NCBI GenBank assembly: GCA_000432255.1
Contig: HF989926.1
Span: 65 to 64,064 of the forward strand
DNA: 64,000 nt
From: Acholeplasma sp. CAG:878
GTDB taxonomy: Bacteria; Bacillota_I; Bacilli_A; RF39; UBA660
Reading direction: 5' to 3'
This document shows positions 1-54,437 of the stretch, piece by piece. The first letter of the stretch is position 1. The number at the start of each line of letters is the position of its first letter. The notes beneath the pieces were generated by a model. The model was not told where the DNA came from and searched no databases. It saw nothing but the letters and a program-made list of their open reading frames with translations. The position numbers and the translations under genes are program-made.

Positions 1-957
<957 letters not shown>

Positions 958-1023
958 ATTTATTTATGTCTAATATTGGGTCCACAATTATCATGTTTTC
1001 AGAGAATTATTTCTCTATTTAAA

Positions 1024-1137
1024 TTCGTAACGATAGCAATGAGGGTACACCTGTTCCCATCCCGAACACAGAAGTTAAGCTCATTAACGCCGACAATAGT
1101 GTAAGCTAAGATAGGAAGTTGCGGATTTTTTTTGTAA
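1024..1137 (+). rRNA. rrf: 5S rRNA
   Basis: ...GATAGCAATGAGGGTACACCTGTTCCCATCCCGAACACAGAAGTTAAGCTC... matches the universal 5S core (CCGAACAC, GAAGTTAAGC). The 5' and 3' ends pair, and the gene sits ~66 nt after the 23S end. Confidence 0.88.
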
Positions 1138-1336
1138 TTTTATATAAAAAAAATCATTTTGGTATATTTTTGTTAATCAAAATGATTATTTTATTTTTTT
1201 TTACATATCTAATCCATCTTATTTCTTCTGGAAAATCCACATATTTTACCTCGTACAACATACATCTCTAATCCTTTCTACAAATAAATTATCTCATATT
1301 AATAACTAAAAAAGCCTATTCTTGAATAAATAGACT

Positions 1337-1672
1337 TTATTTTTGTATATTTTGTTTATTTAGTTTATCTATTAACAAATTGTTAACAAAATCAATATTA
1401 TCTTTTGATATTTTTCCACATATTCTTATTTTTATGTTATCAATATTCCATTCATTAGTAGGGATATTTTTATTTTTTAAATCAATAGTTAACAAATCAC
1501 CTATTTCTACGTTAAATAGATTAGCTATTGTAACAATTGCTTTCATTGTGGGCTTCCGTTCGTTATTTTCCCATCTTGCAATTGTAGTTTGGTTGTAGTT
1601 GATTTTTTTGCTTAAATCGTGTTGTGACATTGCATTTTTAGTTCTTAAATATTTTAAATTTTTTCCAAACAT
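1337..1672 (-). CDS. XRE-family helix-turn-helix transcriptional regulator (111 aa)
   Basis: N-terminal HTH_XRE signature (LKYLRTKNAMSQHDLSKKINYNQTTIARWENNERKPTMKAIVTIANLFNVEIGDLL). A hairpin and U-run downstream at ~1296-1330 could be its terminator. Confidence 0.8.
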   Translation of the reverse strand: MFGKNLKYLRTKNAMSQHDLSKKINYNQTTIARWENNERKPTMKAIVTIANLFNVEIGDLLTIDLKNKNIPTNEWNIDNIKIRICGKISKDNIDFVNNLLIDKLNKQNIQK

Positions 1673-1673
1673 A

Positions 1674-2396
1674 TTATTGCTCCTTTATATATTCCAATAT
1701 TTGTTTTAATCCATTTTTAGATAACATGTTTATTTGAATGCCATTATTGAAAGTTATCACTTTATTGACTTTATCAATATTGTATATTTGTTCCACATTG
1801 ACAATGCAACAACTTTTAGTTAGTATGTAGTTTTTTCCAAGTAATTTTTGTAACTTTTTCAATGTTAAATTACAAGGAATTTTATTGTTATATATGAAAT
1901 TAATATATGTTTTTCGGCTATTTTTATCATAATTAATGTAAGTTATATTTGTTGGATTAAATCGATATATTGTATCCTTTGTATTAATTGTTAATATTTT
2001 ATTATTTTTTGTTTTAATGGCATTTTCTAATGTTTCCTCTAGAAGCTTTTGATAATCACTAGACTTATTAATAAATTTCAAAAACATCGAGTTACCAGTA
2101 ATTACATCATTTTCATAATCATCATAATATAAAGTAATAAAAATAATTAAACTTTCTAAATCAGTTTTTCTTATTTTTTCTGCTATTTCAATTCCATCTG
2201 TCTTTGGTAATACCATATCTAATATATATATTTTATTGGGAATGTTTTCATTTATTATATGACAAAAGTCATCATCAGCATCAAAAAAAATATGTTTTTT
2301 GTATTCTAAATTATTTTTCATCATTACTTTGTCAATAGTATCGCAATATCTTTTACTAAAAAAATCGTTATCTTCGCATATTATAAAGTTTATCAT
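1674..2396 (-). CDS. Response regulator with LytTR DNA-binding domain (AgrA/ComE-like); no histidine kinase adjacent
   Basis: Receiver-like N-terminus (IICEDND acidic pocket, phospho-acceptor Asp in ILDMVLP, conserved T and K). The C-terminal ~100 aa looks LytTR-like. It is separated by only 1 nt from the XRE gene on the same strand. Confidence 0.75.
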   Translation of the reverse strand: MINFIICEDNDFFSKRYCDTIDKVMMKNNLEYKKHIFFDADDDFCHIINENIPNKIYILDMVLPKTDGIEIAEKIRKTDLESLIIFITLYYDDYENDVITGNSMFLKFINKSSDYQKLLEETLENAIKTKNNKILTINTKDTIYRFNPTNITYINYDKNSRKTYINFIYNNKIPCNLTLKKLQKLLGKNYILTKSCCIVNVEQIYNIDKVNKVITFNNGIQINMLSKNGLKQILEYIKEQ

Positions 2397-8244: not shown

Positions 8245-8270
8245 AACGAGAATTACCTCGTTTCTTTTTT
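8244..8270. terminator. Bidirectional hairpin terminator shared by convergent genes
   Basis: AACGAG-aattac-CTCGTT hairpin with T-runs on both strands. The sortase stop codon lies in the loop. Confidence 0.55.
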
Positions 8271-9059
8271 TATTAATTTGGCATGAATAACAGTTCGCTC
8301 TTTTTTATTATAGCAAGTTGATAAAGTTAATATTTTATCATTCTCACTAACACTAGTTTCAAAATCGTATACACTTCTTTCTTTAATTAGTTCTATAAAA
8401 TTCATAAAGTCATCATTATCGATAAAATTTGTTTGAAGATAATCTGAAGTTGTTGGAATATGGTATACACTAAATACTTGCCAAAGGGTATTTTCTTTTT
8501 CTGAAGACATTTTAATTATAAAATTCTCTTCTTGTTTTAACCAACCATTTTCAGTAATCAATTTTAAAGAACCAAACATGGCTTTATTTAATAAAGCGTG
8601 ACCATATATGATTATATGTTTATCAGTGCCATCTAACTTATTGCGATAATCAGCAAAAATCCAACCAGCCTCATTATATGTTTTATCAAAAGAATGATTT
8701 ATATAAAAATCATTATTATCTGCTTGAACAAATGGATAATTTACATTAGTTCCTTTAACTTGAAGCCATCCTTTAACTCTACTATTAATTTTTTTTAATT
8801 CACTAAAATCAACATTAAGCATATTTAATTTTATATAATCCCAATAAATATTTTTTTTTGGTTTTTCTTCTTGTTCAATGATTTCAACATTTTCATCATC
8901 CGGTTTTTCTTCAATTTTAACTATGTTATTAATTTCTTCAATTTTAGTAACCGTTTCACTTGAATGTTTTGATAATTTAATAACATTAACAACTGATATA
9001 GTTAAACCAACAGCAGAAATAATTAATATCAATATAAAAATAATTTTTTTAATTTTCAT
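8253..9059 (-). CDS. srtB: Class B sortase
   Basis: N-terminal membrane anchor, a YGH motif (HIIIYGHA), catalytic TLSTC and a downstream Arg. The likely start is MKIKK (GGGTGAG RBS), shorter than the track ORF. Confidence 0.8.
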   Translation of the reverse strand: MKIKKIIFILILIISAVGLTISVVNVIKLSKHSSETVTKIEEINNIVKIEEKPDDENVEIIEQEEKPKKNIYWDYIKLNMLNVDFSELKKINSRVKGWLQVKGTNVNYPFVQADNNDFYINHSFDKTYNEAGWIFADYRNKLDGTDKHIIIYGHALLNKAMFGSLKLITENGWLKQEENFIIKMSSEKENTLWQVFSVYHIPTTSDYLQTNFIDNDDFMNFIELIKERSVYDFETSVSENDKILTLSTCYNKKERTVIHAKLIKKETR

Positions 9060-9123
9060 TTTCTCACCCATATTAATTATACTATTTTTATAAATAATAA
9101 GCAAAAGAAAAATAAGTAAAAAC

Positions 9124-29140: not shown

Positions 29141-29371
29141 TTATCTATAGTATGGCCCATAGTAAGGTGGATATGGATAATATGGATATGGTTGATAGTA
29201 TGGTCTATTATATCCACCATAGAAAGCAGGTGCGATTGCTGCTCCTGTAACTCCTCCTAATAAAAATGGAAAAACAAAGCCTCCAACTCTTTCATCGTTT
29301 GGATTAACTTTATAATTGTTAGGTTTAAACTGTTCATAATTAACAGGTTGGTAATAACCATTTGGTCTCAT
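29141..29371 (-). CDS. Tyr/Pro/Gly-rich small protein (76 aa), possible spore-coat-like structural protein
   Basis: The C-terminus is ...GGYNRPYYQPYPYYPYPPYYGPYYR. RBS AAAGGAG lies 7 nt before the ATG. The composition recalls Tyr-rich spore coat proteins, and the gene is adjacent to sporulation-type genes. Confidence 0.6.
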   Translation of the reverse strand: MRPNGYYQPVNYEQFKPNNYKVNPNDERVGGFVFPFLLGGVTGAAIAPAFYGGYNRPYYQPYPYYPYPPYYGPYYR

Positions 29372-33284: not shown

Positions 33285-33332
33285 TTTAAGGTTAAAAATA
33301 ATTTATAATGATATAAAAGGTAGTTGGTGAAG

Positions 33333-34826
33333 ATGAATAAACGCGGATTTACATTAGTAGAATTAATAGGAACAATTGTAATATTACTTGTTTTAAGTTT
33401 ATTAGTTTTTCCTAATTTATTAAATTTAATTAAAAATTCAAAAAAAGATATAAGTACTTCAACTAAAGATTTTATATATGGACAAGCAAAGTCATATATA
33501 TATGATAATGTTAATGGTTATACTTTAAAAGAAGGAAATATTTATTGTATAGGGTTGAAAGATTTAGTAAGTAAAAATTATTTAAATACTCCATTAAAAG
33601 ATGCTGAATCTGGAAATGATATCGATTTAAGTAAGCAAATAGAGGTAAAAGTTAACAATAATGATTATAGTTATGAATTAGTTGAGACCTGTACTCCTAA
33701 AAGTTATTACACTGACAATAGTGGTGCAAATACGCCTAAATTATTTAATAATATGGTACCAATCAAATACGAGAATAATAAATGGTTAGTAGCTGATTTA
33801 TATTCAAAATGGTATGATTATAATTCTAAACAATGGGCAAATGCAATAGTATTAAATAGTGGAGTTACTAAAAATGTAGGGGATGAAGTAACAGAAGAAG
33901 AAATATCTTTATGGTATGTATGGGTTCCAAGATATAAATATACTATATTTAATGGAAACAAAGGAAATGTTTCTGAACAATTAATCAACATAACCTTTGA
34001 AAATGGAGTAGATAAAACAGGGACATTAAGATGCAATGATAATGCAGATGGAAGTGAAACATGTACTGATAATACATATGGAAGTATAGTAAATGGAAAA
34101 AGTACATACACACATCCAGCATTTAAATTTGGTAATACTAATTTAACTGGATTCTGGGTAGGAAAATTTGAAGTGAGTGGAAGTACAAGTACAATCACAG
34201 TTAAACCAAATGTAACAAGTTTAAGAAATCAAACAGTATCAAGTTTCTTTACAGCCATTCAAAATGTAAAAACAACATATGGAATAAATAATGCAGATTC
34301 ACATATGATGAAAAATATGGAATGGGGAGCAGTAGCATACTTAAAACAAAGTAAATATGGACTAGGAACAACAGATATAGCAGTTAATACAAATTCAAGT
34401 TATTATACTGGTGGAGGAACAAGTGATGCATATAAAACAAATGTTGCTCAGTCAACAACGGGAAATATCTATGGAGTATATGATATGAGTGGTGGCGCTT
34501 GGGAATATGTAATGGGTAATTACAATGATACTATAAGTTCTTCGGGCTTTAGTTCAATGCCGGATAAAAAGTACTATAATAAGTATACAAGTAGTACTGG
34601 AAAAATGGGCGATGCCACTATGGAAACGTTAAAGACTTCTGGTACTTATGGTGGAGGAGATGGATGGTATTCAGATTTTACAAAATTCCCACCAACTAAT
34701 GGTCAATGGTTTTATCGTAGTGGTGGCAATAGTGATGCAAAATATGCTGGTGTATTCTATTTCTATAGTTCTGGTGGTCAATCAATTAAAACAATTTCAT
34801 CTCGTGCAGTTTTATCTGCTCAATAA
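33333..34826 (+). CDS. Prepilin-type (N-terminal cleavage/methylation) protein, 497 aa, with C-terminal FGE-sulfatase/SUMF1-like (C-type-lectin fold) domain
   Basis: The leader MNKRG|FTLVELIGTIVIL has Gly at -1, Phe at +1 and Glu at +5, followed by a hydrophobic helix. The C-terminal motifs NMEWGAVAYL, IYGVYDMSGGAWEYVMGNY, WFYRSGGNS and SSRAVLS match remembered FGE-sulfatase signatures. Confidence 0.7.
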   Translation: MNKRGFTLVELIGTIVILLVLSLLVFPNLLNLIKNSKKDISTSTKDFIYGQAKSYIYDNVNGYTLKEGNIYCIGLKDLVSKNYLNTPLKDAESGNDIDLSKQIEVKVNNNDYSYELVETCTPKSYYTDNSGANTPKLFNNMVPIKYENNKWLVADLYSKWYDYNSKQWANAIVLNSGVTKNVGDEVTEEEISLWYVWVPRYKYTIFNGNKGNVSEQLINITFENGVDKTGTLRCNDNADGSETCTDNTYGSIVNGKSTYTHPAFKFGNTNLTGFWVGKFEVSGSTSTITVKPNVTSLRNQTVSSFFTAIQNVKTTYGINNADSHMMKNMEWGAVAYLKQSKYGLGTTDIAVNTNSSYYTGGGTSDAYKTNVAQSTTGNIYGVYDMSGGAWEYVMGNYNDTISSSGFSSMPDKKYYNKYTSSTGKMGDATMETLKTSGTYGGGDGWYSDFTKFPPTNGQWFYRSGGNSDAKYAGVFYFYSSGGQSIKTISSRAVLSAQ

Positions 34827-34918: not shown

Positions 34919-36517
34919 ATGGTATTAAGAAAGCCGTATGCCTTTTTTATAAAACATTTTAAGCTAATACACTTAATATTAGCAGTTTTATGTATTTATT
35001 CAACAGTACAAACACATAAATTATATACTTTTTTCAGTGATTATATTTATAAAACAGTTAATGTTATAGGACAAGACCTAGTTGGTTCATTATATACTGG
35101 TTTTATGACTTTCGGACCGATTTTAATAATTATATTAACAATTACAATAATGGTTATAATGATTGTAAAAGAAAAACCATTTACATTTTATATAATAAAT
35201 ATATTAATATTTATATATGTAATAATTATTTCACAAGTATGTCAATCTACACTATATGATATGCAAATATCCTTGTTAGATATAAGAGCAATCAGAATAG
35301 TAAGAGATTTAACTTTGGTTAGTTTTGTAATGCAAATAATAAGTTCTATTATTATTGGAATTAGAGGAACAGGCTTTGATGTTAAGAAATTTGATTTCGG
35401 ACAAGATTTACAAGATTTAGAAATAGATGAAAGTGATAGAGAAGAATTTGAAGTTGATTTTTCAGTTGATAGAAATAAAACAAAAAGAAAATTAAAATAT
35501 CAAATTAGGAAGTTAAAATATATTTTCAAAGAAAATAAATTAGCATTTATAGTAGTTACAGTATTTATATTATTAGTAACAGGAGGTTTAACTTATTATT
35601 ATATAAGTACAAGACCTAGGGTTTTAAATCAAGGCGAATTATTTAGAGGAAATGGTCTAAGTTTATCAATTGAAAATAGTTATTTAACTAGATATGATTA
35701 TAAAGGACAAGAAATAGAAAAAGATTTTTCTTTTCTAGTTTTACAAATTAAAGTACTTAATTTAAGTAAATATCAAAATACTCTTCCATTTGCAACATCA
35801 AAAATCGTTATAGGTTCTTATTCATACACGCCAACTTTAAATTATGAAGAGTATTTATTTGATTTTGGTAATATTTATAAAAATGAAAATATAGGTGAAG
35901 AATATACTTATAAAACTTTAATATATAAAATTCCTACTTTACTAACTGATGAAGAAATATTGTTTAATTATGTTAATAAAGTAAATTCAAAAGAAAAATT
36001 CTTTAAAGATGAAGTTAAAATAAGATATATTGATTTAGATAAAGAAAAAGATAAAAAAACTTATGAATTAGGTGAAGAAATTAGTTTTGAAGACTTACCT
36101 TTTAAAAATTATAAAATTAAAATTGATTCTTATGAAATTAAACCTTCGTTTAAATTAGAATATAACTATTGTTATAAAAAGGAATGTACTAAATCATATG
36201 AATATGTAAAACCTAGTATAGTAAGCAATTATGATAAAGTTTTATTAAAATTAAAAGGAACTTATAATTTGAGTGATGAAGTAAATATCGAAGGCGTATA
36301 TGATATTTATGATTTAATTGATAAGTTCGGTTATTTAAAATATGAATTAAATAATGAAGTTAAAACTCAAAATGTTAAATTTAAGGAAGTTACTAGTAAT
36401 AAAGCTAAAGAGATGGATACATACTATATAGAAGTATTAAAAGAATTACAAAATGCTTCAAAGATATCTTTAATTATTAAAATTAGAAATCAAACTTACG
36501 AATATACTTTAAAATAA
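34919..36517 (+). CDS. Polytopic membrane protein with large extracytoplasmic C-terminal domain (532 aa), function unknown
   Basis: About five predicted TM helices in the first ~230 aa, then a beta-rich soluble domain. RBS AAGGAG lies upstream. Confidence 0.6.
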   Translation: MVLRKPYAFFIKHFKLIHLILAVLCIYSTVQTHKLYTFFSDYIYKTVNVIGQDLVGSLYTGFMTFGPILIIILTITIMVIMIVKEKPFTFYIINILIFIYVIIISQVCQSTLYDMQISLLDIRAIRIVRDLTLVSFVMQIISSIIIGIRGTGFDVKKFDFGQDLQDLEIDESDREEFEVDFSVDRNKTKRKLKYQIRKLKYIFKENKLAFIVVTVFILLVTGGLTYYYISTRPRVLNQGELFRGNGLSLSIENSYLTRYDYKGQEIEKDFSFLVLQIKVLNLSKYQNTLPFATSKIVIGSYSYTPTLNYEEYLFDFGNIYKNENIGEEYTYKTLIYKIPTLLTDEEILFNYVNKVNSKEKFFKDEVKIRYIDLDKEKDKKTYELGEEISFEDLPFKNYKIKIDSYEIKPSFKLEYNYCYKKECTKSYEYVKPSIVSNYDKVLLKLKGTYNLSDEVNIEGVYDIYDLIDKFGYLKYELNNEVKTQNVKFKEVTSNKAKEMDTYYIEVLKELQNASKISLIIKIRNQTYEYTLK

Positions 36518-36551
36518 TAAAAAAATATGCTATAATTGAAGGGAGTTAAAT

Positions 36552-37196
36552 ATGAAAAAAATATTATTATTACTTGTATTACTTTGTCTTCCTTATACAA
36601 AAGTTAATGCTTTCTATTGTACTTATCAAGAACAAGCAAGATTAAAAAGCTTAGCTACTAATGTAAATATAAGTTATGATTTCAATGAGAGTAATAAAAC
36701 TTTTACTTTTAACTTAATTAATTTAAATAAGGATTTGTATTTCATGGATAGAACAGATGATAAGATTTACAATTATACAAAAAATGAAATAAATTTGACG
36801 GGTTACAAAAGTGGACAAAAAGTTAAATTTGAATTTTATTCAGATGTTGAATTTTGTGATAAAGTGTTATATACTTATGTAGTAACACTACCAATATATA
36901 ATCCTTATTACAAAGAAAAAGTTTGCGAAGATGTCCAAAATTATAATTTGTGTCAAAAGTGGAGTAATCATGGTTTAAGTAGAACAGCTTTTATTGAAAA
37001 AGTAAACGAATATAAAAAAACATTAGAAAAACCAAAAGAAGATGAAATAAAAGAGGAAACTAAAAAACATATTTCTCTTTTGACTAATGTAATAGAGTTT
37101 TTAACAAGTTATTATTATATTTTTATAATATTAATAGTTGGTATTATTGTTACAGTAATAATTGTTAAGAATAAGAAAAGTAATATATATAAGTAG
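36552..37196 (+). CDS. Secreted, C-terminally membrane-anchored Cys-containing protein (214 aa), function unknown
   Basis: A signal peptide (MKKILLLLVLLCLPYTKVNA) and a C-terminal TM helix with a basic tail. Confidence 0.55.
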   Translation: MKKILLLLVLLCLPYTKVNAFYCTYQEQARLKSLATNVNISYDFNESNKTFTFNLINLNKDLYFMDRTDDKIYNYTKNEINLTGYKSGQKVKFEFYSDVEFCDKVLYTYVVTLPIYNPYYKEKVCEDVQNYNLCQKWSNHGLSRTAFIEKVNEYKKTLEKPKEDEIKEETKKHISLLTNVIEFLTSYYYIFIILIVGIIVTVIIVKNKKSNIYK

Positions 37197-37205
37197 GAGG
37201 TACCA

Positions 37206-37607
37206 ATGAAAGAATCGTTTTGGGGCGCTATGGTCGTAGGACTTGGACTTGTAGCAATATTCTTTATATACTTTTTTCAATCGGTAACTAATGTTGATGA
37301 ACATAACTACCATTTGTTAAAAGAAGCAACCGAAGCTGCTATGCATGATGCATTAGATTTAGGTTTATATAGAGAAAAAGGAGAAGTTAGAATCGATAGA
37401 GAGAAATTTGTTGAAAATTTCTTAAGAAGATTTGCTGAGAGTGCAACTTTATCTGATAATTATCAAATTGATATTTATGATGTCAATGAAGAACCACCTA
37501 AAGTTACCTTGGTAGTTAAAAGTGGAAAGGATACTGGTTTAACTGGAGAAAAAATGGAATTCACTATTGAAAACAAATTAAATGCAATATTTGAAATACC
37601 ATATTAG
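37206..37607 (+). CDS. N-terminally membrane-anchored small protein (133 aa), function unknown (pilus-assembly accessory?)
   Basis: A single N-terminal TM helix (GAMVVGLGLVAIFFIYFF) and a soluble acidic domain. It is tightly coupled to the flanking genes. Confidence 0.5.
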   Translation: MKESFWGAMVVGLGLVAIFFIYFFQSVTNVDEHNYHLLKEATEAAMHDALDLGLYREKGEVRIDREKFVENFLRRFAESATLSDNYQIDIYDVNEEPPKVTLVVKSGKDTGLTGEKMEFTIENKLNAIFEIPY

Positions 37608-37627
37608 AATAAGAAAGGGATGATTTT

Positions 37628-38497
37628 ATGAATAATGTTTTAGTTTCAATTAAAAGATTTTTTAAAAACAAAAATGTCGTTACAGTATTAGGAGTAATAT
37701 TAATATTAGGTTTATTATATTTTGGTTATAATAGAACTATTAAAGAACAAACAAATCCAGTTAGAATTCCAGTTGCTACACAAACAATTCAACCAAGAAC
37801 TTTAATTACAGATGAAATGGTTACATTTATAAGTGTACCAAAGTCAATGGTATCAGATAACGTATTGAAGGGTACAGGTAGTATTGTAGACAAGTATACA
37901 GCTGTTAATACAGTAATTCCAAAAGGAAGCATGTTTTATTCAGATGTATTAGTTGAAAAAGAAGATTTACCAGATTCAGCATTTGTTGAAGTTCCAGTTG
38001 GACAAACACCATATGCATTATCTGTTACTAGCCAATCAACTTATGGAAATTCAATTTTTCCAGGTAACATTATCGATGTTTATATGAAAGCAACTGATGA
38101 AAATGGACAAATTATTGTAGGTAGATTATTAGAGGATGTTAAAGTATTAGCTGTTAAAGATAATGCAGGTAACAATGTATTTGAAGATACAACAGCCAAT
38201 AGAACTCCATCAACACTATTATTTGGTGTTAATAATGAAACTTACGTATTATTAAAAAGAGCTGAATACTTAAAATCAAAAGGAGTTGAACTATTCCCAG
38301 TTCCTTATGGTGGTAATGTTCAATTAACAGGTAATACTAAAGTTGATAGAGAAGAATTAGTTGAATTAATCGATTCATTAAGTATTGGTTATATAAGTGA
38401 AGATGAATTCCAAGATCAAGTTCAAGACGAAATTGAAAAAAATCAACAAGAACAACAAGAAAATCAAAATAGTCAACAAAATAATGGAGCACAATAA
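37628..38497 (+). CDS. CpaB/RcpC-like pilus assembly protein (SAF domain)
   Basis: N-terminal TM helix, a SAF-like segment (PVRIPVATQTIQPRTLITDEMVTFISVPKS) and a Gln-rich C-terminus. Confidence 0.6.
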   Translation: MNNVLVSIKRFFKNKNVVTVLGVILILGLLYFGYNRTIKEQTNPVRIPVATQTIQPRTLITDEMVTFISVPKSMVSDNVLKGTGSIVDKYTAVNTVIPKGSMFYSDVLVEKEDLPDSAFVEVPVGQTPYALSVTSQSTYGNSIFPGNIIDVYMKATDENGQIIVGRLLEDVKVLAVKDNAGNNVFEDTTANRTPSTLLFGVNNETYVLLKRAEYLKSKGVELFPVPYGGNVQLTGNTKVDREELVELIDSLSIGYISEDEFQDQVQDEIEKNQQEQQENQNSQQNNGAQ

Positions 38498-39573
38498 TGC
38501 ACGAAACATTATTTTCGCAAATTGATTTTGGACCACTATTACCATATTTAAATAGTGATGATGTCACTGATATTTCATACAGTAACAATGGTCAAATATG
38601 GTTAAAAACATTATCTCGTGGTATCTTTAGGGTTGAAAATTCTGAAGTAAATAATGCCATGATGGAAAAACTTGCTTTCCAATGCTCAAACGTTATGGGG
38701 AAAACATTTAATATGGCTCACCCATTCTTGGATTCAGAAAGTCCAGAACTTCGTATGAATTTCGTTCACGAATCAATTGCTACAAATGGTATTGCATGTG
38801 TTATCCGTAAAACACCAGCTAAAATAAGACTTGAAAAAGAAAAAATAATTGCTGAAAAGTATATTACTTTAGATGTTCATGATTTTTTAGTTCAATGTGT
38901 TTTAGGACATTGTAATATAATTGTTTGTGGTGAGACTGGTAGTGGTAAAACGGAGTTTGTTAAATATTTGGCATCTAAAACAAAAGAAAATGAAAAAATA
39001 ATTACAATTGAAGATACTTTGGAACTCCATTTAGATAGAATATTTCCTCATAGAGATATTGTTGCAATGAAAACAAATAATGTTGCTTCATACTCAGAAG
39101 TATTAGTTACTTGTATGCGTCAAAACCCTAAATGGATATTATTATCCGAAGTTCGTAGCGCTGAAGCAGTAACGGCAGTTCGTAACTCAATTTCATCAGG
39201 ACACTATATTTTATCTACAATCCATGCTGACAAAGCATCCGCTATACCTACTCGTATGTATAGTTTGCTTGAAACTAGCCAAGATGTTGAGCAATTCTTA
39301 AAAACAATTCATAGATATGTTCAATTAGGAGTATTAGTAAGAGGTTATCAGGATAAAGTAACAAAAAGGTTTGTTCGTGAAATAGGAGAAGTTACAGAGT
39401 TTTATGTCGATGAAGACAATAACTCAAGATACAATGTTATTTATCAAAAAGCGCCAACTGGTAAAGTAATAAGACATAATCCAACAAAATATTTAATCGA
39501 TTATATTGAAGGACAAGGTGTTACTCTACCAGAAGGGTTTGTTAATCCAGCTTATGATATTAAAGAAGATTAA
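38497..39573 (+). CDS. CpaF/TadA/VirB11-family secretion ATPase
   Basis: Walker A (VCGETGSGKTEF), Walker B with the Asp/His boxes of the T2SS-E/VirB11 superfamily, and a size of 358 aa typical of TadA. Confidence 0.75.
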   Translation: MHETLFSQIDFGPLLPYLNSDDVTDISYSNNGQIWLKTLSRGIFRVENSEVNNAMMEKLAFQCSNVMGKTFNMAHPFLDSESPELRMNFVHESIATNGIACVIRKTPAKIRLEKEKIIAEKYITLDVHDFLVQCVLGHCNIIVCGETGSGKTEFVKYLASKTKENEKIITIEDTLELHLDRIFPHRDIVAMKTNNVASYSEVLVTCMRQNPKWILLSEVRSAEAVTAVRNSISSGHYILSTIHADKASAIPTRMYSLLETSQDVEQFLKTIHRYVQLGVLVRGYQDKVTKRFVREIGEVTEFYVDEDNNSRYNVIYQKAPTGKVIRHNPTKYLIDYIEGQGVTLPEGFVNPAYDIKED

Positions 39574-39586
39574 GGAGGAGTAAAAA

Positions 39587-40489
39587 ATGAATGAGTTTAT
39601 TTTTATAGCAATAGCCTTTATACTAATTTTTATCATTGTATATAGAAAAAATAGTGGTGAAAATGTATATAAGTATATAAGTAGAAATGTAGGACTTATA
39701 TATGAAAAATTTGCTCCTTATTCTTTTAAAATGGTAAGGGAAAAAGTTAAAGAACTAGGACAAGAATATACACCTAGACAATATGCAGTTCAAATAATAG
39801 CCTTTTCCGTAGGTGCGGCAGTTGTATCATATTTATACTTTTATAACTTAGTTTGGTGTATTGTATATATAGCAGTTGCGGTAGCAATTATTCCTTACTT
39901 AGCTTATTTAAGATGTAAAAGATTATATAGTGAATTTATATTTGAACAAATTCAAGTTTATACTACCAACACTATAATGGAATTTGCAACAACTCAAAGT
40001 TTTGTTAAAGCCTTAGAAGGTGTTTATGAATCTGGTGTATTAGAAGACCCAGTTAGAAGCGATGTTAAGATGATGATTGATTTGGCATATAAAAATGGTA
40101 CAATTACTGAATCAGTTGATTATATGAATAGTAGATATGATTATTACATAGTTAGAAATATGCACCAACTATTTACCCAAATTACTAATGAAGGTGCAAG
40201 AGATGCATCTGGTTCGTTAGAAAATATGTCACTTGATATTGATATGTTAGTTGAAGGCGTTTATAGAGATAGAATCGATAGAGCAACATTCCATAAAAAA
40301 TTCTTACAATTTGGTGTTGTATTATATTTAATGATTATGTTAGTTCAGTTCTTACTTGGAACTGAAACATATCTTGAAATGCTTAAAATTTGGTATGTTC
40401 AATTATTACTACACGGAATTATAATTATTAATACATATTTTATCCTTAATGGAGAAAAATTCTATAATGAGAATGTGGGGGCTGAGTAA
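39587..40489 (+). CDS. TadB-like (T2SS-F-family) inner membrane protein
   Basis: Polytopic membrane protein of ~300 aa immediately downstream of the ATPase, as expected for TadB. The sequence match itself was not verified. Confidence 0.5.
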   Translation: MNEFIFIAIAFILIFIIVYRKNSGENVYKYISRNVGLIYEKFAPYSFKMVREKVKELGQEYTPRQYAVQIIAFSVGAAVVSYLYFYNLVWCIVYIAVAVAIIPYLAYLRCKRLYSEFIFEQIQVYTTNTIMEFATTQSFVKALEGVYESGVLEDPVRSDVKMMIDLAYKNGTITESVDYMNSRYDYYIVRNMHQLFTQITNEGARDASGSLENMSLDIDMLVEGVYRDRIDRATFHKKFLQFGVVLYLMIMLVQFLLGTETYLEMLKIWYVQLLLHGIIIINTYFILNGEKFYNENVGAE

Positions 40490-41277
40490 TGTTATTTTTA
40501 GCAATCGGTATAATTTTATTGTTTATAATGTTTTATAATAACTATATTGATACTCAAGGCTTTATTAAAGAAACTCAACCTATATTTGGATTTCTTAAAG
40601 AAAGTGATTATGAATTTTTAGTTAGTGTAAAATATGGTGGAATTGATAAAGTTGATATTAACAAATTATTTGGAATAAGAGTTAGAAACGGTTTATTGGT
40701 AATTGTATTAATGTTATTCTACTTTATTAAAGATTTAAAATTTATCTATATTTTAGTTTCTGTAATAGTAGGATATGTTGTATTTAAATCTTCATATACA
40801 AGTTTAAAATCTTATTACAAAAAGAATTTATATAATATTAATTTAATGTTACCTTACTATTTAAAAAGTTTGGAAATTTTAGTTCAACACTATACTGTTC
40901 CAGTTGCACTATCTCGTTCAATTGAAACAGCACCTGATGTTTTTAAACCAGGCTTAAGAAAATTGGTTGACAGAATAGAAGCTGGAGATTCGACGGTTGA
41001 CCCATATATGGATTTTGCTAAAGAATATCCAGTTAGGGATTCAATGCGTATGATGAGATTGTTATACAGACTAGGGTTGGGAAGTCAAGAAAACAAACAA
41101 GAACAATTAATGATGTTTTCAAGAACTGTATCTAACTTACAAAACAAATCTCGTGAACAAAAATACGCTGAAAGACTTGAAAGAATGGAAAAGAAAACCA
41201 TGATTATGTTATTTGTAACTGGTGGTGGTATACTACTATTAATGTTGTTATCAATGATGATGATGATGAATTATTAA
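40489..41277 (+). CDS. TadC-like (T2SS-F-family) inner membrane protein
   Basis: Polytopic membrane protein of 262 aa, translationally coupled to the preceding gene (ATGA overlap). Confidence 0.5.
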   Translation: MLFLAIGIILLFIMFYNNYIDTQGFIKETQPIFGFLKESDYEFLVSVKYGGIDKVDINKLFGIRVRNGLLVIVLMLFYFIKDLKFIYILVSVIVGYVVFKSSYTSLKSYYKKNLYNINLMLPYYLKSLEILVQHYTVPVALSRSIETAPDVFKPGLRKLVDRIEAGDSTVDPYMDFAKEYPVRDSMRMMRLLYRLGLGSQENKQEQLMMFSRTVSNLQNKSREQKYAERLERMEKKTMIMLFVTGGGILLLMLLSMMMMMNY

Positions 41278-41362
41278 CAATGATTTTACAAAAAAAAATA
41301 AAAAAATGTAAAAATTGTTAAAATTGTGTTATAATAAAGATATACGAGAAGGTGGTGATTAG

Positions 41363-41596
41363 ATGAAAGAAGCTGCTGGAGAAGCAAATATGACAGTTAT
41401 TACAATCATTCTAATTGGAGTTATCGCAGCTATAGCTATTCCACTTGTAAGAAATGCGATGACAAGTACAAGTAAACAAGCTTGTTGTAATAGTGCCGGA
41501 GGTGTTTGGTCAGGAGGAGAATGTGCTGAATTATCTGCTAGTGGCCAAAGCACATATGATGCATGTGTTTCTAAAACTGAAAATGCAGGACAATAA
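41363..41596 (+). CDS. Small Flp-like (atypical) pilin candidate, 77 aa, with 4-Cys C-terminal region
   Basis: A strong RBS GAAGGTGGTG, then a short polar leader ending in Gly (MKEAAG), a ~22-aa hydrophobic segment and the C-terminus CCNSAGGVWSGGECAEL...DACV. It has its own terminator. The Flp EY motif is lacking. Confidence 0.55.
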   Translation: MKEAAGEANMTVITIILIGVIAAIAIPLVRNAMTSTSKQACCNSAGGVWSGGECAELSASGQSTYDACVSKTENAGQ

Positions 41597-41603
41597 TATG
41601 AAT

Positions 41604-41636
41604 CTCGTTTCTTGAAAATAGAAACGAGGTTTTTAT
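41604..41636 (+). terminator. Rho-independent terminator after the small pilin gene
   Basis: CTCGTTTC-ttgaaaata-GAAACGAG hairpin followed by GTTTTT. Confidence 0.8.
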
Positions 41637-41829
41637 TATGTCTGAATTAACATATCAATATGAAATTGAAATGTAATAAAAATTGTCATGCAAAATAAGT
41701 TAAACTTCTTGTACAAGTTTAGTAATATCTAAAAACATATTTTATTATGAAATAAAAGAGATTGGGTATTGAAAATTTGTGTTAAATATTATACAATTAT
41801 GTAAATATGTGTTGGGAGTGTGTTTTGGT

Positions 41830-44622
41830 ATGTTTGGTAGTTCTAATACAAAAGATAATAAAATGATTTCAAAAAACCGCAAATGCCTTTTTTGTGGTTT
41901 TAATGTTAAGATGGGATTCACGTTAATTGAATTGCTTGCTGCGTTGGTAGTTTTGGCGATAATAGCTTTAATAGTATATCCTACAATTGGCAAATTATTA
42001 GCAAATAATAAAACAAAAGCATATGAAAAACAATTAGATGTAATAGAGGTTGCTGCTTCTAACTGGCTAATTGAAAATGAAGGCAAATTGAAAGATAACG
42101 CCTATGCTCTACCAATAAATGATATAGTTGGAAGCGGATTTATAGAAGAAAATGAATTGATTAATCCAATTAATAACGAACCACTTACAGGATGCATTTT
42201 CATAACATGGAGAAAAAATATTAAACAATACGAATATAATTATGTTGAAAATTGCGAAGAGTTTATAGTACCAAAATTATTGTCATTAAAAGCAAGTAGC
42301 AGTGAGAATGAACACGGATGGAGAAACAAAGATTTTTATGTTTCTCTAAGTGGAGAATATTTAGAAAACTATTATTATTGTATAGATAACAAAAAATGTG
42401 AACCAAATATAATGGTAACTGATGTAAATAAGACTATAGCATTTAATGAAGAAGGAATAAAATACGTTTGTGCTTACGGAACGAATAAATCAGGAGAAAC
42501 AGAATCGATTTGTGAAAAATATAAATTAGATAAAACGAAACCAGTTATTGGGAGTATTGTATTTAGTGGAAAACAAGGTTTAAATAATTGGTTTGTATCA
42601 GACGTAACTGTTAATGTAACAGAATCAACTGATGCTTTAAGTGGAATAGATAATAATATATTAAGTCCAAGTGAAACATCAATAACAAAAGATACTAAAG
42701 GAACAACATATACTTTAACTGCAAAAGATAAAGCTGGAAACATAAGTAGTGTTAGTTATGCTGTAAAAATAGATAAAACCAAACCAATACTAGGAACACT
42801 AACAATAAGTGGAACTAAAGGAAATAATGATTGGTATAAAAGTGATGTAGTATTTAGTGTTAAGGATGGTAGTGATAGTATGTCAGGACACGCTTCTACT
42901 ACATCAAGTATTACAAGTATAACCAAAGATACTAAAGGAACGAAAGTAATATTAACAACCAAAGATAATGCTGGTAATACTACAACTAAAGAATATATAA
43001 TTAAAATGGACAAAACAGCACCTACAATAGAAATGGTTAATCCGACTAATGGTAATTGGACAAATAAAAATATAGAAATAACAAGTAATTTTTCTGATAA
43101 TATATCAGGAATAGTACCATCATCATTAGCGTGGTCAGATGATAATACTAATTGGCATAACTATTCTAATACAAGTACAACAACATTTAAAGATACGTGG
43201 AGTGGTGAAGGAAATAGAACGGGTTATAACAAAGTGTGTGATTATGCTGGAAACTGTAGTACAACATCTACTCCAATTAGAATCGATAAAACCAATCCAA
43301 TAGTAGGGGAGTTAGTAGTAGCAAGTGGGACTTTAGGCACAAATGGTTGGTACACAAGTAATGTAGTGTTTAGTGTGAAAAATGGAAGTGATGCATTAAG
43401 TGGACATGGTAGTACAACAAGTAGTATAAGTAGCATAACAACAAATACAAAAGGAACAAATGTGGTAGTGACAACAAAAGATAAAGCAGGAAATAGTACA
43501 GCAAAAACATACACATTTAAAGTAGATAAAAACGCACCTACCATAACTCCTAAATATTCAACTGTAACAATAGGAAGCATAAGTGAAGTAAATGTATCGG
43601 ATTTGTTTATAATTAATTATTCAATTAGTGGAGGATACGTAACTTGTAATGTTAATAAAACAAAAGATATAAAAGCTGTTAATAATCCACTTAGATGTAC
43701 AGCAACTGGAGGAAATGGATTAATTGCTGAAGCAAAAATAAATGTTAAAAACCAATTAGCAAGTATTGCTGTTACTACCCCACCAAATAAAACATTATAT
43801 TCCGTTGGTTCTGCTTTTGATAAAACAGGTATGGTAGTTACAGCATATTATAAAGATGGAACCTCAAAAGTGGTTACCAATTATACTATTGAGTCAAGTG
43901 TAACACGATATGGCCGTTCTCATATAGGTAAGGTTAAAAAGAACTGGGGGATCAATTATTTATATCCAACTAGAAGAGACCTTGATGAATACGATGATTT
44001 AATTATAACTTATACTGAAGATGGTGTTACTAAAACCACAACTACGCCAATAACGGTTGCTATATATGCAAATCAAGTAAAAAATATTGTTATAGCTTCA
44101 GAACTTTCAAGAGTTAATGTAGCTAAAGTAACAAATTATTATTCAAATCCGGGTGGTACAAGTCATATTAAAACTTCATATGAAATACCAACAGATAACG
44201 AGTATTATAGATATGAGGTTGGTTCTAATTATATTAGACTGCATTCGTTAAAAGCAGGATATTATTCAAGTGATTCTATAAGAGTTCATTTTGAATTATA
44301 CGATGGTACTATATTTAGAGCGGGATATTTTGAAAATATAGATAGCGTAAATACAGATATTAAATATAGTTTTACAGTAGCAAGATTTATTAAGAATTCC
44401 CCACCTTATGGACAATTCTTAGGAGCTACAGGATATTTATTCCAACAACCGCTAACAACCATAGTGTTAGGATGGCAAACATTCAATAATATAACAGATG
44501 CTTCTGGATCTGCGCCTATTGGTGCTTCAGCTCAAAACGGAGCGACTTATATGGAATATAAGTTTTCTAACTTTGTTATGAATGGTAGAAATATGAATGT
44601 TGTGTATACACTTGATTCTTAA
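41830..44622 (+). CDS. Giant prepilin-type protein (~930 aa) with pilin-like N-domain, four tandem ~95-aa Ig-like repeats and a Big_3-like module; candidate pilus adhesin
   Basis: The prepilin motif ...KMG|FTLIELLAALVVLAIIALIV has Glu at +5. The repeats read DKTKPxIGxLxxSGxxGxNxWYxSDVxFSVxDGSDxxSG...TKDTKGT...KDxAGNxS...DKTxP. A Big_3-like segment is LASIAVTTPPNKTLYSVGSAFDKTGMVVTAYYKDGTSKVV. The start is uncertain (41779, 41830 or 41863). No LPXTG sorting signal. Confidence 0.65.
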   Translation: MFGSSNTKDNKMISKNRKCLFCGFNVKMGFTLIELLAALVVLAIIALIVYPTIGKLLANNKTKAYEKQLDVIEVAASNWLIENEGKLKDNAYALPINDIVGSGFIEENELINPINNEPLTGCIFITWRKNIKQYEYNYVENCEEFIVPKLLSLKASSSENEHGWRNKDFYVSLSGEYLENYYYCIDNKKCEPNIMVTDVNKTIAFNEEGIKYVCAYGTNKSGETESICEKYKLDKTKPVIGSIVFSGKQGLNNWFVSDVTVNVTESTDALSGIDNNILSPSETSITKDTKGTTYTLTAKDKAGNISSVSYAVKIDKTKPILGTLTISGTKGNNDWYKSDVVFSVKDGSDSMSGHASTTSSITSITKDTKGTKVILTTKDNAGNTTTKEYIIKMDKTAPTIEMVNPTNGNWTNKNIEITSNFSDNISGIVPSSLAWSDDNTNWHNYSNTSTTTFKDTWSGEGNRTGYNKVCDYAGNCSTTSTPIRIDKTNPIVGELVVASGTLGTNGWYTSNVVFSVKNGSDALSGHGSTTSSISSITTNTKGTNVVVTTKDKAGNSTAKTYTFKVDKNAPTITPKYSTVTIGSISEVNVSDLFIINYSISGGYVTCNVNKTKDIKAVNNPLRCTATGGNGLIAEAKINVKNQLASIAVTTPPNKTLYSVGSAFDKTGMVVTAYYKDGTSKVVTNYTIESSVTRYGRSHIGKVKKNWGINYLYPTRRDLDEYDDLIITYTEDGVTKTTTTPITVAIYANQVKNIVIASELSRVNVAKVTNYYSNPGGTSHIKTSYEIPTDNEYYRYEVGSNYIRLHSLKAGYYSSDSIRVHFELYDGTIFRAGYFENIDSVNTDIKYSFTVARFIKNSPPYGQFLGATGYLFQQPLTTIVLGWQTFNNITDASGSAPIGASAQNGATYMEYKFSNFVMNGRNMNVVYTLDS

Positions 44623-44789
44623 AAAGATGAAACAATTTAAACTGACTAATATAATTAGGTGTTAGTTCTTTGTAAAATATTGTTGGGGAGTAATTAATTT
44701 AACTAAAAAATTCTGATTATGAATACGATGAATAGTCTTAAAGTTAGTGGTAAGTCATATTCGATAGTTGTAGAAGCAGGATTTTAGTA

Positions 44790-51221: not shown

Positions 51222-54437
<3,216 letters not shown>

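What the first reader, a model, noticed from the sequence alone, without database searches (positions are those of the whole stretch)
41830..44622. Approximately 930-aa pilin-like protein with four tandem ~95-aa repeats and a Big_3-like module: giant pilus adhesin candidate lacking a sortase signal
After a prepilin motif (KMG|FTLIELLAALVVLAIIALIVYP) and a pilin-like globular head there are four tandem repeats (roughly residues 250-350, 350-450, 450-520 partial, 520-610). Each follows the pattern DKTKPxIGxLxISGTxGNNxWYxSDVVFSVKDGSDxxSG...TKDTKGT...KDKAGNxS...DKTAP, typical of bacterial Ig-like adhesin modules. A Big_3-like segment LASIAVTTPPNKTLYSVGSAFDKTGMVVTAYYKDGTSKVVTNYT follows. There is no LPXTG sorting signal, which fits display through pilin polymerisation rather than the nearby orphan sortase B. 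The start codon is ambiguous (41779, 41830 or 41863). The 18-aa leader MISKNRKCLFCGFNVKMG ending in Gly is plausible.
Basis: seen in the sequence. Interest (0 to 1): 0.65.

Follow-up and report, generated by a model that had tools for sequence, protein, structure and literature searches.

The report
Giant modular type IV pilin adhesin
This gene from an uncultured human-gut bacterium encodes a small pilus-subunit head carrying a long stalk of seven antibody-like domains and a swappable end domain, most likely a strain-variable adhesin shown at a pilus tip; it is an unusually large and variable example of an already described protein design.

Summary
The ORF at 41830-44622 (930 aa) is 100% identical to a hypothetical protein of 'Acholeplasma sp. 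CAG:878'. It has a prepilin motif (KMG|FTLIE, Glu5, Pro22). It has four tandem repeats of 79-92 aa, not about 95, and the third is complete but divergent. It has a Big_3 domain and no sortase signal.

An AlphaFold model (pLDDT 89) shows a 50-residue alpha-1 helix with a small disulfide-stapled beta-sheet. This head is 38-45% identical to stand-alone pilins of 117-132 aa that end where the head ends. Seven Ig-like domains follow, then a 185-aa all-beta end domain with no recognisable relatives.

The gene belongs to a mosaic multigene family. Relatives carry 2-13 repeats. One strain lacks exactly one repeat. Strains 99% identical in flanking DNA carry an unrelated 3' cassette (43888-44722), and a fossil of the other allele's 3' end lies downstream of the stop codon. 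Heads and tails recombine between paralogues.

It is best read as a modular type IV pilin in the sense of S. sanguinis PilB/PilC and CofB/TcpB, acting as a tip adhesin. The assembling machine is unresolved. A Tad-like locus lies upstream, but it is separately transcribed and not linked in relatives. No prepilin peptidase is in the window.

Verdict: new member of a known kind, moderate interest.

The parts
41600..41632 (+). Intrinsic-terminator-like hairpin after the 77-aa small pilin gene. It separates the giant gene from the upstream Tad-like operon.
   Evidence: 13-bp stem followed by a T-run. The sequence can be read.
41769..41797 (+). Sigma-70-like promoter (TTGAAA, 17 nt, TACAAT) belonging to the giant gene
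   Evidence: 10 of 12 matches. The same element is conserved upstream of orthologue P0051 in L087.
41814..41818 (+). Shine-Dalgarno GGGAG, 11 nt upstream of ATG 41830
   Evidence: Sequence. It is conserved with the ATG in L087.
41830..44622 (+). Coding sequence of the 930-aa prepilin. The mature form is 901 aa, 98.8 kDa, pI 6.8.
   Evidence: It is 100% identical to P0001.
41830..41916 (+). Leader peptide, residues 1-29 (MFGSSNTKDNKMISKNRKCLFCGFNVKMG), ending in Gly(-1). Its length is uncertain: 29, 18 or 2 residues.
41917..42270 (+). Pilin module, residues 30-147. It comprises the alpha-1 helix (F1, E5, P22) and a small beta-sheet stapled by Cys122-Cys142.
   Evidence: AF2 model, pLDDT 88.9. 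Both cysteines are invariant. The module is 38-45% identical to stand-alone pilins of 117-132 aa.
42271..42531 (+). D2, residues 148-234: an Ig-like beta-sandwich with four invariant cysteines (184/190 and 214/228)
42532..42774 (+). Repeat R1, residues 235-315
   Evidence: It is a beta-sandwich in the model.
42775..43011 (+). Repeat R2, residues 316-394
43012..43287 (+). Repeat R3, residues 395-486: a divergent 92-aa copy with an insert that contains Cys470/476
43288..43527 (+). Repeat R4, residues 487-566
43528..43749 (+). X domain, residues 567-640: an Ig-like connector (Cys606/623) shared by family members with different C-termini
43750..44064 (+). Big_3 domain, residues 641-745, with an insertion of about 25 aa
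44065..44619 (+). C-terminal end domain, residues 746-930: all-beta, with no family or fold assignment; the presumed binding module
   Evidence: no relatives outside the family; pLDDT 50-85; only generic Ig-like matches.
43888..44722 (+). Strain-variable cassette. Strains 99.2% identical on both flanks carry 637 bp of unrelated sequence here (the 919-aa allele).
   Evidence: L002 and L003 against the window
44716..44784 (+). Fossil of the last 23 codons of the alternative (919-aa) allele, lying downstream of the present stop codon
   Evidence: tblastn, 87% identity over 23 aa; homology resumes at 44723.
33324..34826 (+). Second modular pilin, 500 aa: the same pilin-head family followed by an FGE-sulfatase-like module
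   Evidence: Its C-terminal module is 58% identical to the end module of giant pilins P0051 and P0087.
34919..41277 (+). Conserved Tad-like core, the candidate assembly machine: 532-aa membrane protein, 214-aa protein, DUF5411, RcpC/CpaB, CpaF-like ATPase, and two polytopic proteins
41363..41596 (+). 77-aa small pilin-like protein. Its first 27 residues, MKEAAGEANMTVITIILIGVIAAIAIP, are the same in the two relatives compared, apart from a GTG start codon in L089. It is a candidate major subunit.

Best explanation
The gene encodes a modular type IV pilin.

What is shown:
[quoted passage not shown] The head is homologous to ordinary pilins of about 120 aa.
- A rod of seven Ig-like domains grafted onto its C-terminus: D2, four repeats, X and Big_3.
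- A hypervariable 185-aa beta domain at the end.

What is inferred:
- A prepilin peptidase encoded elsewhere removes the leader.
- The alpha-1 helix holds the protein in the membrane, and a type IV filament machine then incorporates it as a low-abundance subunit.
- Because the graft is bulky, it sits at the filament tip, with the end domain roughly 25-30 nm beyond the head (from typical Ig-domain dimensions). There the end domain binds a gut ligand, probably a glycan or another surface.
- Recombination among paralogous genes and alleles changes the repeat number and swaps the end module, giving strains different binding or antigenic specificities.
- The machine may be the adjacent Tad-like system (about 45%) or an unlinked one (about 35%).
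For: - Motif.
- Fold: (pLDDT 88.9; alpha-1 at mature residues 3-53; a small sheet; then two beta-sandwiches).
- Disulfides: invariant Cys pairs; all cysteines after the leader are paired by position, as expected outside the cell.
- Head homology: stand-alone pilins of 117-132 aa match the head and end at the second Cys.
- Stalk: Foldseek matches to rod-like Ig adhesins such as GhpA and SiiE.
- Big_3.
- No sortase signal.
- Variation: 2-13 repeats across homologues; an exact one-repeat deletion allele; cassette replacement between strains that are 99% identical in the flanks, with a fossil of the other allele's 3' end; head and tail mosaicism; three tandem paralogues at a second locus, and a contig joining the two loci through 530 bp of shared repeat DNA.
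- A second modular pilin with the same head flanks the Tad-like core.
- Precedent for tip-located modular pilins: PMC8179133. Precedent for interchangeable Tad tips encoded away from the machine: PMC12075869.
Against: - No prepilin peptidase (Peptidase_A24) is in the 64-kb window.
- The gene is its own transcription unit, behind a terminator.
- In more distant relatives it is not next to the Tad-like core.
- The core's own pilin-like proteins use a different N-terminus (MKEAxG|..., no Glu5).
- One strain variant has a stop codon in the leader.
- The end domain has no detectable similarity to any known binding fold, so 'adhesin' rests on architecture and variability only.
- Nothing here shows expression, cleavage or piliation.
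Confidence: 0.6

Rival explanations
1. The protein is a pilin-anchored cell-surface adhesin that is never polymerised. The class III signal and hydrophobic alpha-1 helix serve only as an export and membrane-anchor device, as in archaeal 'bindosome' sugar-binding proteins. The stalk of seven Ig-like domains simply carries the end domain through the cell wall.
For: - The gene is an orphan, with its own promoter and variable neighbours.
- No peptidase or dedicated machine is linked to it.
- A stalk of roughly 25-30 nm, with a variable repeat number, is about what is needed to span a Gram-positive wall.
- The window encodes wall and spore functions, so a wall exists.
- The neighbouring ATPase also gives a weak hit to the bindosome ATPase BasE.
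Against: - The head is a complete pilin module with Glu5, Pro22 and the D-region disulfide.
- It is 38-45% identical to ordinary small pilins. Those features are conserved for packing in a filament, not for anchoring.
- Characterised bacterial modular pilins are found in pili (PMC8179133, PMC9934059).
Confidence: 0.2
2. The protein is a minor pilin of a competence (Com) pilus or a type II secretion-like pseudopilus. It would then serve DNA uptake or secretion rather than adhesion.
For: - JGI names a homologue 'competence protein ComGC'.
- ComGC, ComGE, ComGF and GspG models match the N-terminal helix.
Against: - All scores are far below the cut-offs (22-25 bits against 49-89) and cover only the generic helix.
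- A 99-kDa stalked, hypervariable, multi-copy protein does not fit a conserved DNA-uptake role.
- No com or gsp genes are in the window.
Confidence: 0.07
3. The protein is a sortase-dependent wall-anchored adhesin, or a Sec-secreted adhesin, and the pilin-like N-terminus is fortuitous.
For: A class B sortase is encoded in the window, and Ig-like repeat adhesins are typical sortase substrates.
Against: - There is no LPXTG- or NPQTN-type motif and no C-terminal hydrophobic tail.
- The sortase is 33 kb away on the other strand.
- The N-terminus meets the pilin models and folds as a pilin.
Confidence: 0.02
4. The gene is a decaying or silent member of the family, acting as a donor cassette, and is not itself expressed.
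For: - A nonsense codon lies in the leader of one strain variant.
- A frameshifted paralogue sits at the second locus.
- A fossil 3' end lies downstream of the stop codon.
Against: - The 2.8-kb frame is intact in dozens of independent assemblies.
- It has a promoter and Shine-Dalgarno conserved across species.
- Paired cysteines and domain cores are conserved.
Confidence: 0.06

Closest known systems
Modular type IV pilins PilB (vWA module) and PilC (lectin module) of Streptococcus sanguinis (PMC8179133, PMC9934059)
   Same: A monoderm host. A small pilin module with a class III signal peptide carries a functional module grafted at its C-terminus. The protein is a predicted or demonstrated minor pilin that mediates adhesion and fits only at the tip.
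   Different: Here the graft is a 750-aa rod of seven Ig-like domains plus an unclassified end domain, not a single vWA or lectin domain. The leader may be 29 aa, against 7 aa in PilB. The gene is an orphan in a recombining multigene family, not part of a pil operon. Nothing has been tested experimentally.
CofB (ETEC CFA/III) and TcpB (Vibrio cholerae), type IVb tip minor pilins (as summarised in PMC8179133 and PMC6048534)
   Same: A pilin module is followed by beta-rich domains that current signatures do not recognise. Both sit at the tip, and the leader is long, as in type IVb pilins.
   Different: CofB and TcpB have one beta-repeat domain plus one beta-sandwich domain, form trimers and are encoded in the pilus operon. 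No sequence or specific fold match was found here.
KilN/TadG-type large minor pilins that form interchangeable tips of Tad pili (Myxococcus Kil system, PMC12075869)
   Same: Several paralogous large pilins with variable distal domains, some encoded away from the machine, are proposed to customise the tip of a Tad-type filament. Here a Tad-like (CpaF/RcpC) locus lies next to the gene.
   Different: KilN and TadG work in KilL/M/N heterotrimers and have TadE-like N-termini. Here the N-terminus is the G|FTLIE (N_methyl) type, no partner minor pilins are adjacent, and the stalk is made of Ig repeats.
Rod-like Ig-repeat adhesins of other secretion routes (SiiE, 2yn5; GhpA grappling-hook protein, 9flw)
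   Same: The best structural matches to the D2-R1 pair are tandem Ig-like beta-sandwiches of these proteins. The logic is the same: a stalk presents a distal binding end.
   Different: The resemblance is of fold only (10-14% identity). Anchoring and export are different (T1SS and T9SS), and these proteins have no pilin head.

Membership tests
Type IV pilins (class III signal peptide proteins; PF07963 / TIGR02532) | A leader ending in Gly(-1), followed by about 20 hydrophobic residues with Glu at +5 | tested here: met
   KMG|FTLIELLAALVVLAIIALIVYP. PF07963 scores 21.6 bits (cut-off 21.2) and TIGR02532 scores 24.7 bits (cut-off 16.3). F1, E5 and P22 are invariant across 16 homologues.
Type IV pilins (class III signal peptide proteins; PF07963 / TIGR02532) | The 'lollipop' fold: an alpha-1 helix of about 50 residues packed on an antiparallel beta-sheet | tested here: met
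   AF2 model, pLDDT 88.9: helix at mature residues 3-53, strands at 62-66, 93-99 and 104-110. Foldseek did not rank pilins at the top, because the two Ig-like domains dominate the matches.
Type IV pilins (class III signal peptide proteins; PF07963 / TIGR02532) | A C-terminal disulfide-bounded (D-) region in the pilin module | tested here: met
   Cys122 and Cys142 (mature 93 and 113) are invariant. Stand-alone relatives end right after the second Cys. Bond formation itself is inferred.
Type IV pilins (class III signal peptide proteins; PF07963 / TIGR02532) | Homology of the head to bona fide small pilins | tested here: met
   phmmer against 1.84 billion representative proteins: pilins of 117-132 aa match at 38-45% identity, E about 1e-17 to 1e-21.
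Type IV pilins (class III signal peptide proteins; PF07963 / TIGR02532) | Cleavage, with or without N-methylation, by an A24 prepilin peptidase | not testable with these tools
   No Peptidase_A24 is among the window's ORFs of about 110 aa or longer that were scanned. The rest of the genome could not be searched.
Type IV pilins (class III signal peptide proteins; PF07963 / TIGR02532) | Incorporation into a filament by an ATPase and platform machine | not testable with these tools
   A candidate Tad-like machine lies upstream, but the linkage is not conserved in relatives.
Modular pilins (sensu Raynaud et al. 2021, PMC8179133) | An N-terminal pilin module fused to one or more additional modules not specific to pilus biology | tested here: met
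   Head (30-147), then D2, R1-R4, X, Big_3 and the end domain. The paper lists Ig-like (PF05345) and FN3 grafts among frequent architectures.
Big_3 (PF07523) bacterial Ig-like domain | A match to the family model at or above the gathering score | tested here: met
   21.2 bits against a cut-off of 21.2; only the first half of the model matched because of an insertion. Full-domain homology to the Big_3 proteins P0124-P0126. Foldseek match to 4fdw (rmsd 4.2 A, 21% identity).
ComGC / ComGE / ComGF competence pilins and the GspG pseudopilin (NCBIfam equivalogs) | A score above the equivalog cut-off over the whole protein | tested here: not met
   21-25 bits against cut-offs of 49-89, covering the N-terminal helix only.
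Flp / TadE / TadF pilins of Tad systems | The Flp motif G|XXXXEY, or a TadE-like N-terminal domain | tested here: not met
   Position +6 is Leu, not Tyr. The Pfam scan returned only N_methyl and Big_3, with no TadE or Flp family. The locus's own small pilin-like proteins have a different N-terminus.
Sortase-anchored (LPXTG / NPQTN) surface proteins | A C-terminal sorting motif followed by a hydrophobic stretch and a charged tail | tested here: not met
   No such motif occurs anywhere in the protein. The C-terminus is ...NGRNMNVVYTLDS.

The most novel reading that the evidence does not exclude
Uncultured gut Bacilli of this lineage may build a highly conserved, divergent Tad-like filament. Its major subunit would be the 77-aa pilin, which lacks Glu5 and has a conserved N-terminus. 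The filament would be capped with exchangeable G|FTLIE-type modular pilins of about 50-170 kDa, drawn from a recombining multigene repertoire of heads, Ig-repeat stalks and end modules (lectin-like FGE fold, Big_3 plus an orphan domain, and others). That would be a programmed or frequent tip-switching system, analogous in outcome to pilE/pilS variation but working by whole-module exchange.
Probability: 0.2. Interest if true: 0.65.

Novelty: new member of a known kind. Interest (0 to 1): 0.42.

Why it matters
If the reading is right, an abundant but uncultured human-gut lineage decorates a pilus with very large, strain-specific adhesins whose binding ends are swapped by recombination. That would bear on strain-level colonisation, on evasion of IgA and phages, and on how type IV filaments gain new functions by grafting modules onto a minimal pilin. 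It also supplies defined, testable parts: an orphan 185-aa end domain and a lectin-like alternative for binding studies. The window shows two pilin signal types side by side, which raises the question of which machine and which peptidase serve which pilin.

Tried and rejected
- Nucleotide tandem-repeat search: nothing relevant. The repeats are visible only at protein level; R2 and R4 share 72% DNA identity and R3 shares none.
- Whole-protein self-BLAST returned only the identity hit, so segment-against-segment comparison was used instead.
- Sequence searches of the PDB with the whole protein, a profile of 45 non-redundant repeat units (drawn from 204 distinct units), and a small-pilin relative found only the generic N-terminal helix or chance-level matches.
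- The Pfam scan of repeat units gave only sub-threshold Ig-like families (Big_6, He_PIG, HYR, PKD).
- A word-indexed homologue search with the Big_3 and end region found no relatives of the end domain outside the family.
- Foldseek against the PDB gave only generic tandem Ig/FN3 matches for both models.
- The genome-contig scan used a pattern taken from the repeat, so most of its 79 loci report the widespread Ig-like repeat rather than the pilin. Only L006, L007, L008 and L018 match the head.
- Pfam at E <= 10 on the two polytopic proteins and the 532-aa membrane protein gave no T2SSF or A24 signal. PDB sequence search also gave none.
- The four accessory genes found downstream of the Tad-like core in relatives are absent from the window.
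- The taxonomy lookup of the source organism failed.
- The sortase link was rejected. ComGC membership was rejected.
- The TANB77 pilus cluster (PMC11680825) was read and set aside, because it is described for a different lineage (order TANB77, Clostridia).
Full report
**Source and gene model**

The window has about 25% G+C. The target ORF is 100% identical to 'putative uncharacterized protein [Acholeplasma sp. CAG:878]'. A 99%-identical cluster is named 'prepilin-type N-terminal cleavage/methylation domain-containing protein' by JGI. The same 21-kb region is found at 99.9% identity in human-gut metagenome contigs. The window also encodes spore and cell-wall functions (YsxE, SpoVB-like, LysM/SpoVID-N, polysaccharide deacetylases, PASTA), so the organism is a walled spore-former rather than a mollicute.

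**Start codon**

The longest frame opens at GTG 41779. Gene callers use ATG 41830, which gives 930 aa.

- A terminator-like hairpin (41600-41632) follows the upstream gene.
- A promoter-like site (41769-41797) and a GGGAG (41814-41818) precede ATG 41830.
- The same promoter, Shine-Dalgarno and ATG arrangement precedes an orthologue from another species (L087).
- Two more distant homologues have leaders of 35-39 aa behind strong Shine-Dalgarno sequences, with no nearer in-frame start. They share an FCxF motif just before K-x-G|FTLIE.

ATG 41830 is therefore the best start, giving a 29-aa leader. There is a caveat. The one sequenced contig of a natural 903-aa variant (L090; gene calls of the same length exist in several other clusters, P0019-P0022) has TCA changed to TAA at leader codon 14. 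That leaves only ATG 41911 (MG|FTLIE).

**Pilin module**

PF07963 and TIGR02532 match residues 29-50 above their cut-offs. An alignment of 16 homologues at 90% identity or less shows invariant F1, T2, L3, E5, Y21, P22, and Cys at mature positions 93 and 113.

AlphaFold2 on that alignment (mature residues 1-286) gives pLDDT 88.9. It shows a helix at 3-53, a small sheet (62-66, 93-99, 104-110), and then two separate beta-sandwiches (120-204 and 214-285).

A full HMMER pass over 1.84 billion representative proteins with mature residues 1-205 found 2197 hits at E <= 1e-3.

- Hits covering the whole query are proteins of 237-2201 aa, mostly over 300 aa.
- Hits covering only residues 1 to about 115 include many stand-alone pilins of 117-132 aa, 38-45% identical, that terminate right after the second Cys.

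The giant protein is therefore an ordinary small pilin module with everything else grafted onto its C-terminus. This is the definition of a modular pilin (PMC8179133).

These small relatives, and the head itself, fall far below the ComGC, ComGE, ComGF and GspG equivalog cut-offs. The 500-aa protein at 33324-34826 has the same head (28% identity over 123 aa, through the terminal Cys). It is followed directly by an FGE-sulfatase-like module.

**Stalk**

Segment comparisons and an HMM define four repeats:

| Repeat | Residues |
|---|---|
| R1 | 235-315 |
| R2 | 316-394 |
| R3 | 395-486 |
| R4 | 487-566 |

- R1, R2 and R4 are 44-65% identical.
- R3 is a longer, divergent copy that keeps the KTxP...W...SDxxSG...D.AGN...ID frame.
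- A profile built from 45 non-redundant repeat units (out of 204 distinct units) has no significant Pfam or PDB match, only sub-threshold Ig-like families.
- R1 and the preceding domain D2 (148-234, four invariant Cys) fold as beta-sandwiches. Their best structural matches are tandem Ig-like domains of rod-shaped adhesins: GhpA (9flw, E = 5.5e-6) and SiiE (2yn5).
- After R4 comes a 74-aa connector X (567-640). It is shared by family members whose C-termini otherwise differ.
- Then comes Big_3 (641-745). It sits at the Pfam cut-off because of an insertion of about 25 aa. It is clearly homologous to Big_3 repeats of Christensenella and other proteins, and it matches 4fd0 and 4fdw structurally.

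Every cysteine after the leader has a nearby partner: 122/142, 184/190, 214/228, 470/476 and 606/623. The mature protein is 901 aa and 98.8 kDa. It is rich in Thr, Ser and Asn.

**End domain**

Residues 746-930 are predicted all-beta with moderate confidence (pLDDT 50-85). They have no relatives outside this family in the word-indexed search, and no specific fold match. Within the family there are three highly diverged but alignable versions.

**Variation**

- Homologues carry 2-13 repeats.
- Allele P0023 lacks exactly residues 283-361, one repeat unit, with the junction in the shared ITKDTKGT motif.
- Strains L002 and L003 are 99.2% identical to the window up to 43887 and again from 44723. 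Between these points, 835 bp are replaced by 637 unrelated bp, giving a 919-aa allele whose cluster has 88 member sequences.
- The right-hand breakpoint lies inside the old coding sequence. The window therefore keeps the last 23 codons of the other allele as a fossil at 44716-44784, downstream of its own stop.
- Domain-by-domain identities show free recombination. P0045, P0049 and P0041 have a 97-99%-identical head with different C-terminal halves. P0026 has a 40%-identical head but R3 through the end domain at 96-100% identity.
- A second locus (L086) holds three paralogues in tandem: 879 aa, 1275 aa, and one frameshifted.
- Contig L092 joins that locus (99.3% identity) to the window's locus (98.3% identity) through 530 bp shared in R2/R3. 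This is either a real recombinant or an assembly chimera at 3.8x coverage. Either way, one population carries both loci with near-identical repeat DNA.
- In other species, the end module of the giant pilin is the FGE-sulfatase-like module that sits on the window's 500-aa pilin (58% identity).

**Which machine?**

Upstream, on the same strand, the order is:

1. the 500-aa modular pilin;
2. a 532-aa membrane protein;
3. a 214-aa protein;
4. DUF5411;
5. RcpC/CpaB;
6. a 358-aa ATPase whose best solved relative is CpaF (E = 7e-18), followed by VirB11 and FlaI;
7. two polytopic proteins with no Pfam match;
8. a 77-aa protein.

The eight genes from the 532-aa protein to the small protein are syntenic in other uncultured Bacilli. 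The ATPase is 80% or more identical across the 120 best-matching clusters. The first 27 residues of the small protein (MKEAAGEANMTVITIILIGVIAAIAIP) are the same in the two relatives compared, apart from a GTG start in L089. In those relatives the core is followed by two more pilin-like genes (MKEAxG|...), a gene that on inspection looks TadZ-like, and a 118-aa membrane protein. None of these is in the window.

Arguments for this being the giant pilin's machine:
- Two modular pilins flank it in this species.
- A stand-alone small pilin of the same head family sits next to a gene that resembles, by eye, the 118-aa accessory gene.

Arguments against:
- The giant gene has its own promoter behind a terminator.
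- In more distant relatives the giant genes lie among housekeeping genes.
- The core's own pilins lack Glu5.
- No A24 peptidase is in the window.

I put the adjacent machine at about 45%, an unlinked machine at about 35% and no polymerisation at about 20%.

**Comparison with known systems**

The design matches modular pilins. PilB and PilC of S. sanguinis are minor, tip-compatible adhesins. CofB and TcpB carry unrecognised beta domains. More than 1,200 modular pilins in 264 architectures, including Ig-like and FN3 grafts, were catalogued in 2021 (PMC8179133). Interchangeable Tad tips built from large paralogous minor pilins encoded away from the machine are described for Myxococcus (PMC12075869).

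What is distinctive here:
- the size of the graft (seven Ig-like domains plus an orphan end domain, and up to 13 repeats in relatives);
- the possibly long leader;
- the clear evidence of cassette exchange and copy-number change between closely related strains.

I found no paper describing this family.

**Verdict**

The protein is a new, large and unusually mosaic member of the modular type IV pilin class. Adhesion, tip location and the assembly machine are inferred, not shown.

Noticed in passing
window 34919-41596: An eight-gene Tad-like core: 532-aa membrane protein, 214-aa protein, DUF5411, RcpC, CpaF-like ATPase, two polytopic proteins without any Pfam match, and a 57-80-aa pilin. It is syntenic across uncultured Bacilli. 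The ATPase is 80% or more identical across the 120 best-matching clusters. The small pilin's first 27 residues (MKEAAGEANMTVITIILIGVIAAIAIP; no Phe1 or Glu5, but Gly/Pro spaced as in type IV pilins) are the same in the two relatives compared, apart from a GTG start in L089. Such conservation is unusual for an accessory pilus.
   Followed up: partly
window 33324-34826: A second modular pilin (500 aa): the same head family joined directly to an FGE-sulfatase-like module. The same module (58% identity) forms the distal end of giant Ig-stalked pilins in other species (P0051, P0087).
   Followed up: partly
window 44716-44784: The intergenic DNA downstream of the stop codon still encodes the last 23 residues of the alternative 919-aa allele. 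It is a scar of the cassette replacement.
   Followed up: yes
L090 1501-4212 (equivalent to window 41869-41871): The sequenced contig of a 903-aa strain variant carries TCA changed to TAA at codon 14 of the leader, while the remaining 903 codons stay intact. Gene calls of the same length exist in several other clusters, but their DNA was not inspected. In the L090-to-window comparison, the leader region holds 5 differences in 81 bp, against about 1% elsewhere.
   Followed up: partly
L092 (11572-12100) against window 42762-43290 and L086: A metagenome contig joins a second giant-pilin locus (three tandem paralogues, one frameshifted) to the window's locus through 530 bp of shared R2/R3 sequence. 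This is either genuine inter-paralogue recombination or an assembly chimera at 3.8x coverage.
   Followed up: partly
L088 15892-18358 and L089 13287-15544: In relatives, the Tad-like core is followed by two pilin-like genes (leader MKEAxG|, no Glu5), a 315-329-aa gene that looks like a TadZ/ParA-type ATPase on inspection, and a 118-120-aa membrane protein. None of these is in the window. A gene resembling the 118-aa protein by eye lies next to a stand-alone small G|FTLIE pilin in L091.
   Followed up: partly
window 51320-54437: A large serine recombinase (Resolvase + Recombinase + zinc ribbon) overlaps a Mob_Pre relaxase gene, suggesting a small integrated mobilisable element. GC skew reverses locally at about 54-56 kb.
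   Followed up: no
window 29141-29371 (-): A 76-aa Tyr/Pro/Gly-rich ORF (...PYYQPYPYYPYPPYYGPYYR), called as a gene in metagenome assemblies, lies beside sporulation-related genes (LysM/SpoVID-N-like, YsxE-like). It may be a spore-coat-type protein.
   Followed up: no
window 8253-9104 (-): A class B sortase (TIGR03064, 170.5 bits). No candidate substrate was noticed in the ORFs inspected, though no systematic motif search of the window was run. It is unrelated to the pilin gene 33 kb away.
   Followed up: partly
window 1-2000: G+C is 0.356 here, against about 0.25 in the rest of the window. The cause was not examined.
   Followed up: no
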